Assembly: GCA_042217695.1 (NCBI GenBank)
Contig: JBDGSE010000015.1
Location: 1 to 13,106 of the forward strand
Direction of reading: 5' to 3'
Length of the DNA: 13,106 nt
Source of the DNA: Candidatus Nanohaloarchaea archaeon
GTDB lineage: Archaea; Nanohalarchaeota; Nanosalinia; Nanosalinales; Nanosalinaceae
Positions 6,001-12,000 of the stretch are shown piece by piece; the stretch's first letter is position 1; each line of letters begins with the position of its first letter. Made by a program: the position numbers.

Positions 6001-9000
6001 CTATGGCCGACAGGAACTGTTCTGCTGCCTCTCCGGCCCTGTATTCGATCCTTATGACGCCGTCCTGGACTTTCTTGCTGCCGGTGATCACGAACTCTCC
6101 GGCCTCTCCTGTCCGGGCCAGGTGGGTTCCGCCGCATGCCTCGACGTCGAACTCCTCCTCGTTTTCTATCCTTACAATCCGTACAGTGTTTTCTGGAGCG
6201 GCACCTCCCTGGTAGATGCGGAAGCCGTACTGATTCTCTGCCTCGGTCTTCGGGACACGTTCCTTCTCTATCCTCATGTCCTCCTGGATTACATCTCTTA
6301 CCTGGTCCTCTATCCGGTCCAGTTCTTCCCTGGAGAGCTTCTCGTAGTGCGTGACATCGAGTCGGCCCTTTTCGACCGTCTTGTGGGCGCCCGCCTGCCA
6401 TATATGGTCTCCCAGGAGTTCTCTGGTAGCTCCGTTTACCATGTGGGTGGTGGAGTGGTGCTGCATCAACTGCCTGCGGCGCTCCCACTGTATCCTGGCC
6501 TTGACGGTGTCTCCCTTTTCGAGGTCGTGGTCCGGAGCCCTGTGGAGCACTATGTTGTCCTGTTTCTGTACGTCCACCACTTCTTCGTCATCGATTCTCC
6601 CGTGGTCAGGTTCCTGGCCGCCGCCTTCAGGGTAGAATACTGTCCTGTCGAGGACCACCCAGTCATCTCGTAGCGCGACCACTTCTGCGTCGCATTCTCT
6701 CCGGGTCTCGTCTCGGTAGTAAAGCAGTTCTGTCTCTTCCACTCCATCGAGGTCGAACTTTTTCTCCACGTCCTCCACTGTTTCCTCGTCCGTGGCCAGC
6801 CGGGCATAGAAGTCCTCGGGCACCTTGAAACCGTGTTCCTCCATCATCTCGGGTGATACGCCGTGACTCTCGTAGAGCTCTATCATCCTGTCGAGGGACG
6901 GTTCTCTGTCCAGGGAGGCCAGTTTTTCACGGGCCTTCTGCCGCGATTTCTCGTATTTCTCTTCTTCGACCTCCAGTATCTTTTCCACCTCGTCCATCCT
7001 GTCTTTCAGTTCGGGGAACATCGGCTCGAGTTCCTCGGCGTGCCACTCCATCACCTCTTCGATCTCGAGTTCCCAGTCGTACTTCTCTATGAAGTCTTTT
7101 GCTCTCCGGTACACCATCCGCAGGTTGTGGCCTCCTCCCGTGTTCGAAGGGAGCTTGCCGTCAGCCAGGGCGAAGAGCAGGGCTCGAGCGTGTTCCGCCA
7201 CCGAGTAAAGTGCGGCCGCGGGCTTTATCTCGTCCTTGAGTTCTTCGACGGGGACGTTCATCTCGTCGGCTATCTCCGCCCATTTCTCGTCTATATCCTC
7301 GACTTCGTCCACGTTCAGGTATGAGGAGTATGGCAGGAAGTCCTCCCACAGACCAGGGTCGACTTCAAGTCCCGTGCGCTCCTTCATTTTTCCGATGGCG
7401 AGAGGCATCACGGATTCGTAGGATGTCTGGTCTCCGCGGGATATCCAGGTTATCCTCTCGTGACCCATCCCCATGTCAAGGACTTTCAGGTCCAGTTCCT
7501 CGTATCCTTCCGGTGTCACCTCGTAGAACATGTAGACCTGGTTCCACAGCTCGAGACCATCCACGAAGAACTCCATGCATGCGCCGAGATTTCCTCCGCC
7601 GCCCCAGGAGTCTTCGTGCAGTATGAGTTTTTCTTCAGGTATACCCAGCTCGTCGACAGCGAACTCGAACATGTCCCGGAAGTAGCGATCCTGGTCGTAC
7701 TGTTCCGATTCCTGGAAACAGGTCTGGCCTATGTGGTCGTGCAGTACATAGTGTCTTCCAGTTACACCGACATTGTCTACATCGTTAAACCTGAGAGAGG
7801 GTTGAGGTACAACGAGTTCGGGTGCAGGAGGTTCCGCCTCCCCTGAAACCACGTAGGGCTGGAAGTCGTAGATCGCTGCGCCGACGAACTCGACGTCATC
7901 CCGCCACCGGGCGACTACCGGGTATCGGTCTATGGGTTCGTATCCGCGTGAGGCCATGAAGTCCCGGAATATCTGCCAGGTCTCGACGTAGCTGTATTCT
8001 TCTTCAGTCGGGGAGTCGCCTATGAACGTGTACCCTCCCGAGCATTCGGGTTCTCCGCAGACCTTCCTGTCCGGGTCGGAGCTCCAGAAGTACATCCCAC
8101 AGTTCTCGCACTGTGAGCGCTCAAAACCTTTTTCTCTGAGTACGTCTGTGGCGAAGAATTTTTCCGGGTTGGAGGAGGCCTCCTCCTTTATCTCGGATTT
8201 CAGCTCGTCGAGGCTGGGCATGGGACTGTCTTCCGGGTGGAGTCTTTTATCTGGTTTGGATAGATAGAAAAAGAAAGGTTAGGAAGTTGCAGAGGCGGAG
8301 AGCTTAGAAAAGCTCGCCCAGTCCTTCTGCAGCTTCTTCTTCGGAGGCTTCTTCCTCTTCTTCCTCCTCTTCTTCTGCTTCCTCTTCTTCCTCTTCTGCG
8401 GATTCCTCTCCGCCAGAGGTGGCCGGTGCTGCGCCGGTTGCGACCGCTGTCTCCATCGCTTCCTCGATGTCGACATCCTCGAGAGCGGCTACGAGAGCCT
8501 TGACCTCGGAATCATCGACGTCGAGATCCGCGGCGTCAACAATGGCCTGCAGGTTGTCTTCGTTTACTTCCTTTCCTGCCTCGTGAAGAGTAAGTGCTGC
8601 GTATACAAGTTCCATATTTGATTCACCCTGGTGTCCCGTTCCCCGCCAACCCTTAAAAAGATATAGTACATAGATGAATACAAACAGGTTTTCGTGGTGA
8701 GGTTTTCCGAGCTGCCAGGCTGGACCCGTGTGAAACTGACAGATACAGGAGAGAAAGAACTTTGGCGCAGGGTGGACGAGTTCGGAGGTGTTAAACAGCT
8801 CTCAGAGGCGTTCGATTACTCTTCTACAAAGATGTACAACTGGCGCAACAAGCACTCTTTTCTGCCCGTGGGTTTCGTGAAACAGGTGATGGGCAACGAG
8901 GCCACTGGCGAGGTCCTCGCGATCAAGGGCAGGGGAAGAAGTTCCGTGATGAAAGACCCGGAGTTCCCGCTGGATGCTGGAGACGAGCTCTTGACGCGTG

Positions 9001-12000
9001 TGGATGAATCAGTGGTCGTCAACTCTGAAGGTACACCGGTGTACCAGGCCCGGGAACGTTCACTGGTGGACCGTTTCGACGAACTTCTGCAGGAACTGGG
9101 AGATGTCCCCACCACGTTTTACAGCAGAAGCCTGTACGAGTTAAGGTTCCCGAAGTTTCTCCACGAGCTGTTCGATTCCATGAACCATCAGGAGGACTTC
9201 GCCGCACTGGTTGACGAAACCGGCAAGATAGAGGACGGAAGAGTTGAGGCGGACGGGAAGTCCCTTGATGTAGCTGATTTCGGAGCCGAACTATACTCGC
9301 GTGAGAAACGTATGGAACTGGCGCTGGAACGCGGTGACTCGGAAGAGGTTATACGTTTGATGAACAAAGAGGCAGAAAAGATACGGAAAGCGTTTGGAGG
9401 ATAGGAAGGAGAAAGAAGAGAGGGTTTTACTCCTCTTCTTCGTCCTCGGAATCGGATTCTTTGTCGGTCTCTTCTTCGTCAGATTCGTCTTCCGAGTCCT
9501 GTTCCTCAGCTTCCTCCCCAGAGCCCTCTTCGGATTCTCCCTCTTCTGTTTCTTCTTCATCCTCTCCCTGTTCGGAAGATGGTGTCTCAGAAGATCCTCC
9601 AGAATCTTCGTCTTCTTCGAGGTCTACGGATTCAAGCTCGAGTTCCGAGTTCAAACCTTCCGCGTTTGAAGAGGCGTGGGCGAGGATCTCCTCGATTGTG
9701 TCCTCGGTGGGGATTCCCTCGCTGATGGAGAGGTTCTTCGCCTCCTGGACGGCCTGCGCGATGACTGTCGGCGCGGTTCTCCCGGTGACGTACCCGGAGT
9801 TGACGGCCAGGTTGAAGGCTGCACTCGATGCGGATTCGATATCTGCGCGGTACTGTTCGGTGTCGATGTCGAGTTCTTCCGCGGTGAACAGTTCTCCATT
9901 GCTGTAGGCCACGTCGAGGTCGAGCCCTATCTCCAGGGGTTCGATTCCGACCTGGTTCAGGATCTCGGCGGTATCGTCGTCGATCACTTCGCCTTTTTCC
10001 ACGATCACCGCATCTTTCTGGACGTGGATGGTACCGTCCTCTACCTGTACCTGGGCTCCTGCGCTCTGCAGTTTGCCAAGCATGGGTCCGGGACCGATAC
10101 CTGTGTCGCCTTCAGGCAGCACGATGTCGTTTGGTGCGACCTCTCCTCCCTGTGCTGCGGCCGAGGTCTTGTTCGACTGGATAAGGGAGTAGAGCTGGAA
10201 CGGGTCCCTGTTGGAGAAGATGAAAGCCGGCTGTACAGCTTCGTTCTCCCTGAGTTTTTCGATATCCTCCTTTCCGGAGTTCTCGATGGCGATATCCATC
10301 AGGGTCTTCCGGGACATCTTGATCTCGGCGAAATCCTTCATCTCCTTCTTGATCTCCTGGAGCTGTTTCGCCGGGAGGTTGTGCATGTCCAGGATGCCGA
10401 TCACCGGGTATTCCTCCAGTTTTTCTGCGAACTGTTCGACTTTCTTCTCTTTCTGCTCCCGGGTCATCCGCTTTGGTTTGGGTTGCACCATTATCTGGAC
10501 ACCTCCGTGTTTATGGTGACGCTGAAAACGAAGATTCTGGAGAATCTTCTTGGAAAAGATTCCTCCGGAAATCTTTGAATCTCTGATCTTCGCATCTAGC
10601 TCACCTCCACTGTCGGACCCATGGTGGTCTTTACCAGGACCGACTTCACGTTGTTGTCGCCCTGTGGAAGCCTGTCGCGCACGAAGTCGTATACTGCGCT
10701 TGCGTTCCGCGCGGCTTCTTCTACTCGGTCCTCCTTGCCTATCTTGACCTGCATAAGAGGCTGCTCTCCCAGTCTCAGGGTCACAGTGTTCCGCAGGTCT
10801 TCGATCTCGTCCGTCGGATCGCTTCCGGGAGGCATCGGGTCCGGCATCATGTTGCGCGGACCGAACACCTGTCCCAGGTGCTGACCGATGTCGGGCATCA
10901 GGGGAGCCTCCGCGATGAGGAAGGAGTACTCCTCTGCCAGGTCCTTTGCCTTGTTCGGGTTTTCGTAGTATTCCTCGAGTTCGTCCTCGGTTATCTCAAG
11001 GTCGGCGTTGTCGGCGTTCTTTGCGAGTGTGTCGCCGATCACCGCGACCTTCACGTCCTCGTCGGCCTGGTACGGAAGTTTCAGGTCCTCGTTGAAACGG
11101 TTGTTGGGGTCTGAAAGATCCAGGCTCTTGAAGTTGATCACGAGGTCGAGGCTCTGCAGGAAATTGCGTTCATCCGAGTTCTCGACTGCCTCTTCGACTG
11201 CTTCTTCAAAGTTCACTGGAGATCACCCTGTGATTTCTGTGTAGGAGAAAATCTTTGCATTTTCGTTCCACCTCAGATACCTTCCTCGGCTTCCAGCCGG
11301 TCGTCGTATTCTCCGTTGTCGATTTTCTGCTCGAATTCGTATGCCTCGGTTCCCTCGACTGTTACTCCCATGGACTGCGCGGTTCCGATGACCTCCTTCA
11401 CCGCGCCTCTCAGGTCCATGGCCAGCAGGTCGGAGGCCTTCATCCTTGCGATTTTACAGGCCTGTTCAAAGCTCATGTCTGCGACCTTGTTCTGGTTGGG
11501 TTCGCCGGAGCCTGAGTCTATACCGAGCTCGTCCTTTATCAGGACTGCTGTTGGAGGCTTACCGACCTCTATCTCGAAGTCGCCGGTTTCCTCGTCGATG
11601 GTGACATCGACGGGCACCTCCATTCCCTCGAACTCCTCAGTTTTATCGTTGATGGCGTTTACAACCTCTCCCACGTCTACCGGCAGAGGCCCAAGTTCTG
11701 GTCCTAGCGGAGGGCCTGCGGATGCAGATCCGCCCTCGACTAGTGTGGAAATCGTTTTCTTGTCTCCCATGTTTATCTTTCCTCGTCAAGTATCAGTTAC
11801 TGGCTTTTTTGCGTACCATGTCGACATCGACCGTTGTAGGAATTGGTACCGCGGCATCGAGTAACTCGATCGTGACCTCGCGGTTGGTCTTGTCTACCCT
11901 GTTTATCTTTGCCTCCTCGCCCTTGAACGGTCCGCCCACGACTTCTACCGTGTCGCCGACCTCGAGCTTGATCTCCTCTGCTTCATCGCTGAGGTATTTC

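What a model noticed while it worked through the whole genome (the two positions that open the first line are those of the whole stretch)
8694..9404. Domesticated HTH-LAGLIDADG protein fixed beside rpl10 in Nanosalinaceae
A 236-aa unannotated gene encodes an N-terminal helix-turn-helix joined to a two-domain LAGLIDADG homing-endonuclease fold whose first catalytic motif is lost. It is free-standing, single-copy and held antisense just downstream of rpl11-rpl1-rpl10 across the family, like a WhiA-type domesticated DNA-binding protein.
Evidence so far: Model pLDDT 94; top structural matches I-Tsp061I Z 10.6, PI-PfuI Z 10.5, WhiA Z 8.3, and HTH regulators for residues 14-90. 28 of 30 family genomes, one strong copy each, 0 of 10 in other families with this query. 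In all 18 genomes found by both searches it lies 1-5 kb downstream of rpl1 on the opposite strand. First motif reads LLTRVxxSV, second ALVDExG. About 29 clusters of 220-240 aa. Search 151 listed nothing on it.
(Added by a program. Inside this text positions count along the whole contig: contig position 1 is position 1 of the stretch shown here. "Call 12" and the like, gene names such as g00115 and contig names such as C1 are that model's own, and its searches are not shown. The text may have been shortened before it was handed on; [...] marks where a part breaks off. The agent that wrote the report below was given it as the finding of a first reader that could run no searches.)

Follow-up and report, generated by a model that had tools for sequence, protein, structure and literature searches.

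The report
Tamed endonuclease gene beside archaeal rpl12
In a family of tiny salt-loving archaea, a former DNA-cutting selfish gene has lost its cutting residues, split a ribosomal protein operon, and now shares a promoter and a private 18-base DNA box with the gene rpl12, which suggests it has become that gene's regulator.

Summary
The gene (8694-9404, +) is real: N-terminal Cro/XRE-like HTH, one whole LAGLIDADG domain, a cut-down second one. It occurs in 45 of 50 family genomes; the five misses also lack rpl12 (assembly gaps). The shared gap holds a conserved 18-bp semi-palindromic box, 6-7 nt from a two-way TATA box; it is unique in the own genome and absent before rpl12 in 17 of 17 outgroup loci lacking the gene. 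Both catalytic positions are lost, not one (motif 1 acidic in 0 of 133, motif 2 in 31 of 133). Its closest relatives are free-standing LAGLIDADG proteins of Woesearchaeota-type archaea that keep both acids, are patchy (1 of 25 loci in one family) and sit at the same rpl10-rpl12 junction. Best reading: a homing endonuclease domesticated into a transcription factor that binds the box, represses itself and promotes rpl12 transcription. Binding and sign are inferred, not shown. It works like WhiA but is not a WhiA: an independent archaeal domestication whose selfish relatives still exist.

The parts
8694..9404 (+). Gene X, 236 aa, HTH plus catalytically degenerate LAGLIDADG protein (start may be the second GTG at 8697)
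8742..8891 (+). Cro/XRE-like HTH (residues 17-66); putative recognition helix 43-53 is conserved across the family
8979..9176 (+). LAGLIDADG domain 1 (residues 96-161); motif-1 catalytic Asp replaced by Ser106
9198..9401 (+). Motif-2 helix (169-177; catalytic position 176 variable), vestigial domain 2 and two C-terminal helices
8667..8684 (-). Conserved 18-bp semi-palindromic box, candidate operator; lies upstream of the TATA for rpl12 and between TATA and start for gene X
8649..8659 (.). Shared TATA-like element (8652-8659) usable in both directions, with an invariant base at 8649 that fits a BRE for the gene X direction
   Evidence: role inferred
8623..8628 (-). Shine-Dalgarno-like GGTGA before rpl12
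8304..8615 (-). rpl12 (archaeal stalk protein P1/L12), the proposed target
   Evidence: PF00428
9427..10491 (-). rpl10 (P0), cut off from rpl12 by gene X, convergent with it
5420..8221 (-). alaS, downstream of rpl12 in most loci, possibly co-transcribed from the same promoter

Best explanation
Gene X descends from a free-standing LAGLIDADG homing endonuclease that inhabits the rpl10-rpl12 junction of DPANN archaea. In the ancestor of this family the gene came to lie in the opposite orientation, cutting rpl12 off from the rpl11-rpl1-rpl10 transcript; it lost both catalytic positions, most of its second domain and its C-terminal winged helix, and was kept as a site-specific DNA-binding protein. 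It binds the 18-bp box in the short gap it shares with rpl12. One TATA box serves both directions: for gene X the box lies between TATA and the (usually leaderless) start, so binding blocks its own transcription; for rpl12 the box lies just upstream of the BRE/TATA, the position of archaeal activators, so binding favours rpl12 (and perhaps alaS). Shown by sequence: location, loss of catalytic residues, purifying selection, the box and its geometry, intact patchy relatives at the same junction. Inferred: descent from that subclade (moderate tree support), that the relatives cut DNA, that X binds the box, and the sign of regulation (activation of rpl12 about 60:40 over repression).
For: Head-to-head with rpl12 in 45 of 45 loci. 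Box 66-75 nt before the rpl12 ATG in 45 of 45 loci tested, 15 of them not used to build the matrix; single site in G000, 29.2 bits against next best 14.6; best score <=2.9 before rpl12 in 17 of 17 outgroup loci without X, including G050 where rpl12 is also detached from rpl10; 28.2 in G069, the one outgroup genome with X. Where X and rpl12 are pulled apart the box stays at the rpl12 TATA, and two genomes carry a second copy at the X start (L009, L021). Putative recognition helix and beta3-beta4 strands are more conserved in X than in the intact relatives (0.45 vs 0.28; 0.45 vs 0.36) although X is more diverged overall (0.37 vs 0.47). dN/dS 0.06-0.44, median 0.20, 12 pairs. Intact relatives at the junction in 6 of 7 genome loci; profile match P 99.5%, E 2.7e-23; the 18 best profile scores among 71 relatives all belong to that group. 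Activators bind upstream of BRE, repressors downstream (PMC5937170, Introduction). L12 is needed at about 4:1 over L10 (PMC5499594, passages).
Against: No binding or expression data. Gene and box co-occur partly because both came with the operon split; only one outgroup genome (G050) has a detached rpl12 without X. HTH identification is weak. In the published Nanohalobium proteome the orthologue LC1Nh_0097 has 0 peptides in both counted columns (coverage column 29; rpl12 also 0). Tree support for X as sister of the rpl12-site group is only 77/84, 760 of 1000 bootstrap trees. Asp174, Glu175 are invariant and Arg203, Lys205 nearly so, more than a dead scaffold strictly needs. X alleles have moved between genera.
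Confidence: 0.6

Rival explanations
1. X binds the box only to silence itself. It persists because its promoter now drives the essential rpl12 and because unchecked X transcription from the shared TATA would compete with rpl12; it has no direct activating contact.
For: The box abuts the X start codon in 29 of 45 loci; homing endonucleases can autorepress (I-TevI, PMC3384342 passage); very low abundance fits.
Against: When the two genes are separated the box stays with the rpl12 TATA (L009, L021, L063), and its spacing to that TATA is nearly fixed.
Confidence: 0.17
2. The box is read by another factor or is a core promoter or leader element, and X has an unrelated job (RNA binding, chromosome or protein interaction) while merely staying where it inserted.
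For: No direct link between protein and box; the LAGLIDADG part is net acidic; Bacillus WhiA is reported not to regulate the expected genes (PMC10714963, start of abstract in search listing).
Against: A general element should recur: one site only in G000, 14 off-site pattern matches in 50 genomes against 21 for the reversed control. Box and X appear together in G069 and neither in its congener G068. Acidity is usual in halophile proteins (own knowledge).
Confidence: 0.14
3. X is still a selfish element with residual nicking activity from one half active site, and spreads or is maintained by homing at the rpl12 junction.
For: Asp174 and Glu175 invariant, Lys205 in 125 of 133. G069 carries X and the box between outgroup-type rpl10 and rpl12, and X is nested among family alleles at 96/95. 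Alleles of one genus are not a clade (AU p 8e-36, group chosen after seeing the tree).
Against: Motif-1 acid absent in 133 of 133, motif-2 position variable, domain 2 strands that would hold DNA deleted. Present in every family genome where rpl12 is assembled, so no empty sites to invade. Placing G069 outside the family is not rejected (AU p 0.26); alaS and rpl12 fragments also cross genus lines. No relative confirmed in the viral collection (0 of 63 candidate stretches).
Confidence: 0.09

Closest known systems
WhiA / DUF199 (Streptomyces, Thermotoga, Mycoplasma gallisepticum)
   Same: LAGLIDADG fold without catalytic acids joined to an HTH; autoregulation; M. gallisepticum WhiA controls a ribosomal protein (rpsJ) operon using both domains (PMC3384342 passages; PMC11701221 abstract). 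Structural match Z 8.3.
   Different: HTH is N-terminal; second LAGLIDADG domain truncated; no WhiA Pfam hit; archaeal; one apparent site; derives from a different endonuclease lineage that still exists at the same locus.
Free-standing HTH-LAGLIDADG-wHTH proteins of Woesearchaeota/Nanoarchaeota (found here, not found in print)
   Same: Same N-terminal HTH and domain 1 (HHalign E 2.7e-23); same rpl10-rpl12 junction.
   Different: 365-500 aa, both acidic motifs kept (23 of 23 rows), full second domain and C-terminal winged helix, sense orientation inside the operon, patchy.
Archaeal intron and intein LAGLIDADG endonucleases (I-Tsp061I, PI-PfuI, TliVMA intein, I-DmoI)
   Same: Fold: Z 10.7, 10.5, 8.7, 7.7 for X; Z 13.7, 14.6, 15.6, 12.7 for an intact relative.
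   Different: X is not in an intein or a detected intron and lacks the catalytic positions.
Archaeal promoter-proximal regulators (TFB-RF1, CopR, Lrp-type)
   Same: Semi-palindromic site directly upstream of the BRE; CopR has a divergent layout with dual repressor/activator role (PMC7830388 passages; PMC5937170 abstract and Introduction).
   Different: Unrelated folds; no sign of a ligand-sensing domain in X; target is a ribosomal stalk gene.

Membership tests
WhiA/DUF199 | LAGLIDADG fold lacking the metal-binding acids | tested here: met
WhiA/DUF199 | Two full LAGLIDADG domains followed by a C-terminal HTH | tested here: not met
   HTH N-terminal, domain 2 truncated, C-terminus two plain helices
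WhiA/DUF199 | Match to WhiA sequence profiles | tested here: not met
   no WhiA family among the 25 shown of 28 families hit by 55 members at E<=1, none for the window protein
WhiA/DUF199 | Sequence-specific promoter binding and transcription control | not testable with these tools
   candidate box found, binding untested
Active monomeric LAGLIDADG homing endonuclease | Acidic residue at position 8 of motif 1 | tested here: not met
   Ser106; D/E in 0 of 133
Active monomeric LAGLIDADG homing endonuclease | Acidic residue at position 8 of motif 2 | tested here: not met
   Thr176; D/E in 31 of 133; the invariant Glu175 aligns with position 7
Active monomeric LAGLIDADG homing endonuclease | Patchy presence with empty cognate sites | tested here: not met
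   45 of 45 family genomes with an assembled rpl12; one possible transfer (G069) unresolved
Active monomeric LAGLIDADG homing endonuclease | DNA cleavage | not testable with these tools
   needs assay
Intein- or intron-encoded endonuclease | Hint domains or a surrounding intron | tested here: not met
   stand-alone ORF of 219-258 aa in 109 homologues, no Pfam Hint, no Rfam match in the window; bulge-helix-bulge introns not tested
Free-standing rpl12-site HTH-LAGLIDADG group (defined here) | Common descent | tested here: inconclusive
   sister in both best trees: SH-aLRT 94, 77/84 and 760 of 1000 bootstraps; long branch
Free-standing rpl12-site HTH-LAGLIDADG group (defined here) | Position between rpl10 and rpl12 | tested here: met

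The most novel reading that the evidence does not exclude
A homing endonuclease that parasitised the rpl10-rpl12 junction broke the operon and became the dedicated activator of rpl12, acting as a polarity switch on a single two-way TATA box; the host now depends on its former parasite for a ribosomal stalk protein. The operator may be a drifted copy of the old homing site (it resembles the first six codons of rpl12), and protein plus operator form a portable cassette that has entered a second family. Active ancestors and the tamed form can both be studied.
Probability: 0.3. Interest if true: 0.9.

Novelty: new variant of a known kind. Interest (0 to 1): 0.78.

Why it matters
WhiA is the textbook case of a LAGLIDADG nuclease turned regulator, but its selfish ancestor is not at hand. 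Here the likely ancestors (patchy, both acids kept, decaying remnants) and the fixed, dead derivative occupy the same site, so the path from parasite to regulator can be tested with two proteins and one 80-bp DNA fragment. It would also be a transcription factor for an archaeal ribosomal protein gene in a genome-reduced symbiont, and a new answer to how L12 is made in excess of L10. The search also exposed a large family of free-standing LAGLIDADG genes in Woesearchaeales, each subclade tied to a different housekeeping gene.

Tried and rejected
Sequence search of solved structures with the family profile: one chance match (YajQ, E 0.22). Foldseek gave no match at E<=0.001, best I-Tsp061I 7e-3. 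ESM Atlas: top hit probably the own cluster, next hits LAGLIDADG clusters at 0.87-0.88, leads only. A wider regulon: 14 off-site pattern matches in 50 family genomes against 21 reversed-control matches; the 13 regions fetched showed mostly coding positions and no TATA at the right spacing by eye; 3 of 19 outgroup genomes without X had one match each, all inside ORFs. A stricter box-plus-TATA pattern missed the known positive G069 and was discarded. The second match in G011 (E 6.5e-5, with a stop) lies antisense to rpl4 and is taken as spurious. Box as relic of the homing site: 9-12 of 18 identities to the first six rpl12 codons, median top 0.8% of 18-mers in 44 family loci, but the register was chosen after looking, so it is kept only as a lead. 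No RNA holder listed. Viral contigs: 0 of 63 candidates confirmed. The bacterial sigma-70 scan is not applicable. Literature: nine full-text searches listed no paper on this gene, the split operon or the free-standing family; only listings were seen for most hits, and subscription journals are not covered.
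Full report
Observation. The ORF at 8694-9404 (+) encodes 236 aa with no Pfam or NCBIfam family. It has 109 homologues of 219-258 aa among 909 candidates, those with names all from nanohaloarchaea. The window is a nanohaloarchaeal contig: secE, spt5, rpl11, rpl1, rpl10 on the minus strand, then gene X on the plus strand, then rpl12 and alaS on the minus strand. So X does not just follow rpl10: it sits inside the classical L11-L1-L10-L12 cluster (described as an operon in PMC10833476, passages) and separates rpl12 from it.

Distribution. X is found once in 45 of 50 family genomes and in 23 of 23 that are at least 90% complete. The five without it also gave no rpl12 match, so these look like assembly gaps. 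With a 55-sequence profile, 1 of 20 genomes of the other four families matched (G069). In 18 outgroup loci with rpl12, 16 have rpl10 directly upstream, G050 has rpl12 detached with no X, and G069 has X. In the family X is head-to-head with rpl12 in 45 of 45 loci, within 120 nt in 41; the rpl10 side is loose (17 adjacent, 10 further off, 18 not seen). dN/dS in the 12 pairs with dS below 1.5 is 0.06-0.44, median 0.20; rpl10 gave 0.10 and 0.29 in the two pairs where it was held.

Protein anatomy. The model (pLDDT 94.2, pTM 0.89) matches LAGLIDADG enzymes over residues 94-217: I-Tsp061I Z 10.7 (rmsd 3.0, 123 aligned), PI-PfuI 10.5, WhiA 8.3; residues 14-90 match XRE/Cro-like regulators only at Z 4.1-4.5. 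A profile search of 1.84 billion representatives of all lengths found 76 proteins, among them 290-508-aa relatives with intact motifs. Profile-profile alignment to the closest of them (P 99.5%, E 2.7e-23) puts Ser106 on the motif-1 Asp and Thr176 on the motif-2 Glu; the catalytic residue of the motif lies at the base of each helix (PMC6294521, passage; that it is the eighth letter is my own knowledge). Across 133 family sequences position 106 is acidic in 0 and position 176 in 31; Asp174 and Glu175 are acidic in all 133. A different gap placement in helix 1 does not rescue motif 1: no position from 103 to 108 is a conserved acid. Against the model of an intact relative X lacks the linker, one helix, two strands and a further helix of domain 2, and the C-terminal winged helix. 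Against a wholly dead site: Arg203 and Lys205, which align with the relatives' HPxK helix, are kept in 122 and 125 of 133.

The shared promoter. The 78-nt gap between X and rpl12 carries a conserved 18-bp semi-palindromic box (8667-8684), then 7 nt, a TATA-like element (8652-8659), and a GGTGA before rpl12. A matrix built from 28 loci finds it 66-75 nt before the rpl12 ATG in 45 of 45 loci tested (44 family loci and G069; L064 left out because that stretch reads N), 15 of them held out, scoring 10.1-28.4. In G000 it is the only site above 15 bits (29.2; next 14.6; shuffles give 0.4 sites above 19). Before rpl12 of 17 outgroup loci without X the best score is 2.9. In 29 of 45 loci the X start codon overlaps the first base of the box, 23-24 nt from the TATA read on the X strand; TATA-to-ATG distances of 587 predicted G000 genes peak at 20-23 nt, so X is probably leaderless there. 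In this genome that ATG is gone and a GTG 10 nt further serves, yet the box is intact. Where X and rpl12 are pulled apart, the box stays with the rpl12 TATA; L009 and L021 have a second copy at the X start, L063 does not clearly, and L064 cannot be read. The geometry is that of an activator for rpl12 and a repressor for X (PMC5937170, abstract and Introduction; PMC7830388, passages).

The ancestors. A scan of GTDB contigs with the intact relatives returned 7 loci; in 6 the gene lies between rpl10 and rpl12, in the sense of the operon, in records titled mostly Woesearchaeota or Nanoarchaeota. Of 22 metagenome loci, 14 are at that junction by at least one flank, 2 lie just beyond rpl12, 2 have no flank, 4 are elsewhere or weak; several are duplicates. 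All 23 rows of this group keep both acidic motifs (15 with a locus, 8 assigned by the tree); the model matches TliVMA intein Z 15.6 and PI-PfuI Z 14.6 and has a winged helix. They are patchy: 2 of 401 genomes of that order score below 1e-100 (54 match at 1e-15; only four candidates were scored per genome), and in one family 1 of 25 loci with both flanks is occupied, while L164 keeps a remnant 41 of 45 bases identical to the gene's 3' end. Other subclades lie beside ychF, htpX, rtcB/archease, RNase Z/endA, glmS, carA, nreA. This is how free-standing homing endonucleases behave (phage parallel in PMC10448857, passages); cleavage itself is untested. X groups with the rpl12-site subclade in both trees, at SH-aLRT 94 with 88 rows and only 77/84, 760 of 1000 bootstraps, after 26 long-branch, biased or redundant rows were dropped; the top 18 profile scores are all from that group. 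The putative recognition helix and the beta3-beta4 strands are more conserved in X than in these relatives, the reverse of the overall trend, as expected if X's target has been frozen.

Mechanism. Most likely X binds the box, shuts its own promoter and favours the rpl12 direction of the shared TATA. A reason for keeping it: L12 is needed at about four times L10, solved in a methanogen by processing in this same intergenic region (PMC5499594, passages). Binding, sign and dimer state are not shown. The Nanohalobium orthologue LC1Nh_0097 is annotated hypothetical and has 0 peptides in both columns of the published proteome, as has L12 (PMC7443923, supplementary tables 2 and 3; its supplementary PDF could not be read). 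Signs of movement remain: G069 has outgroup-type rpl10 and rpl12 around X and the box, X there nests among family alleles (96/95) but a position outside is not rejected (p 0.26), and alleles of genus g15 do not form a clade; alaS and rpl12 fragments are also mosaic, so ordinary recombination could explain this.

Comparison and verdict. It works like WhiA, including the Mycoplasma WhiA that represses a ribosomal operon (PMC11701221, abstract; PMC3384342, passages), but fails WhiA membership on domain order, domain 2 and profile. It is not an intact homing endonuclease. Nine literature searches listed nothing on this gene or its free-standing relatives. Verdict: real feature, new variant of a known kind (independent archaeal domestication), interest 0.78.

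Noticed in passing
L080-L138 (for example L119:1498-2640, L115:1468-2619, L113:1501-2652, L111:1489-2655): A large family of free-standing HTH-LAGLIDADG-wHTH genes in Woesearchaeales, mostly with both acidic motifs, each subclade beside a different housekeeping gene (ychF, htpX, RNase Z/endA, rtcB/archease, glmS, carA, nreA, trpS, elp3); not found in print.
   Followed up: partly
L164:1456-1500: Remnant of the endonuclease 3' end, 41 of 45 bases identical to L139, left in front of rpl12 after loss of the gene; the rpl12 ribosome-binding site lies inside this remnant.
   Followed up: yes
L065:2018-3463 (G069): Gene X plus box between outgroup-type rpl10 and rpl12; congener G068 has the unsplit operon. 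Motif-2 position 8 is Glu in this copy. Possible horizontal transfer of the cassette.
   Followed up: partly
window 8598-8615 and 8667-8684 (-): The box resembles the first six codons of rpl12 (10 of 18 identities here, up to 12 in relatives); could be a drifted homing site or chance.
   Followed up: partly
L094:2989-4119, L095: An intact relative lies just downstream of rpl12 in convergent orientation, a second arrangement at the same operon.
   Followed up: no
L068:1522-1539; L074:4888-4905: Two off-site box-like matches in intergenic DNA, one about 250 nt before an rpl7Ae-like gene, one next to a thermosome-like gene start (names by eye); count of such matches does not exceed the control.
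   Followed up: partly
window 4103-4312 (+): 69-aa winged-helix-like protein (weak IclR/TrmB hits below cut-off), convergent with a 130-aa gene without a family.
   Followed up: no
window 303-941 (-): YbaK/tRNA-editing domain with an 80-residue N-terminal extension in the called ORF; the start may be over-extended.
   Followed up: no
L009:743-1414; L063:1949-2905: Unrelated genes inserted between X and rpl12 on the rpl12 strand; the 3' side of X also takes many insertions.
   Followed up: partly
P0153, P0155, P0158, P0165, P0167, P0176, P0177: A separate 290-357-aa HTH-LAGLIDADG clade with an altered second motif (CDG); genomic context not examined.
   Followed up: no
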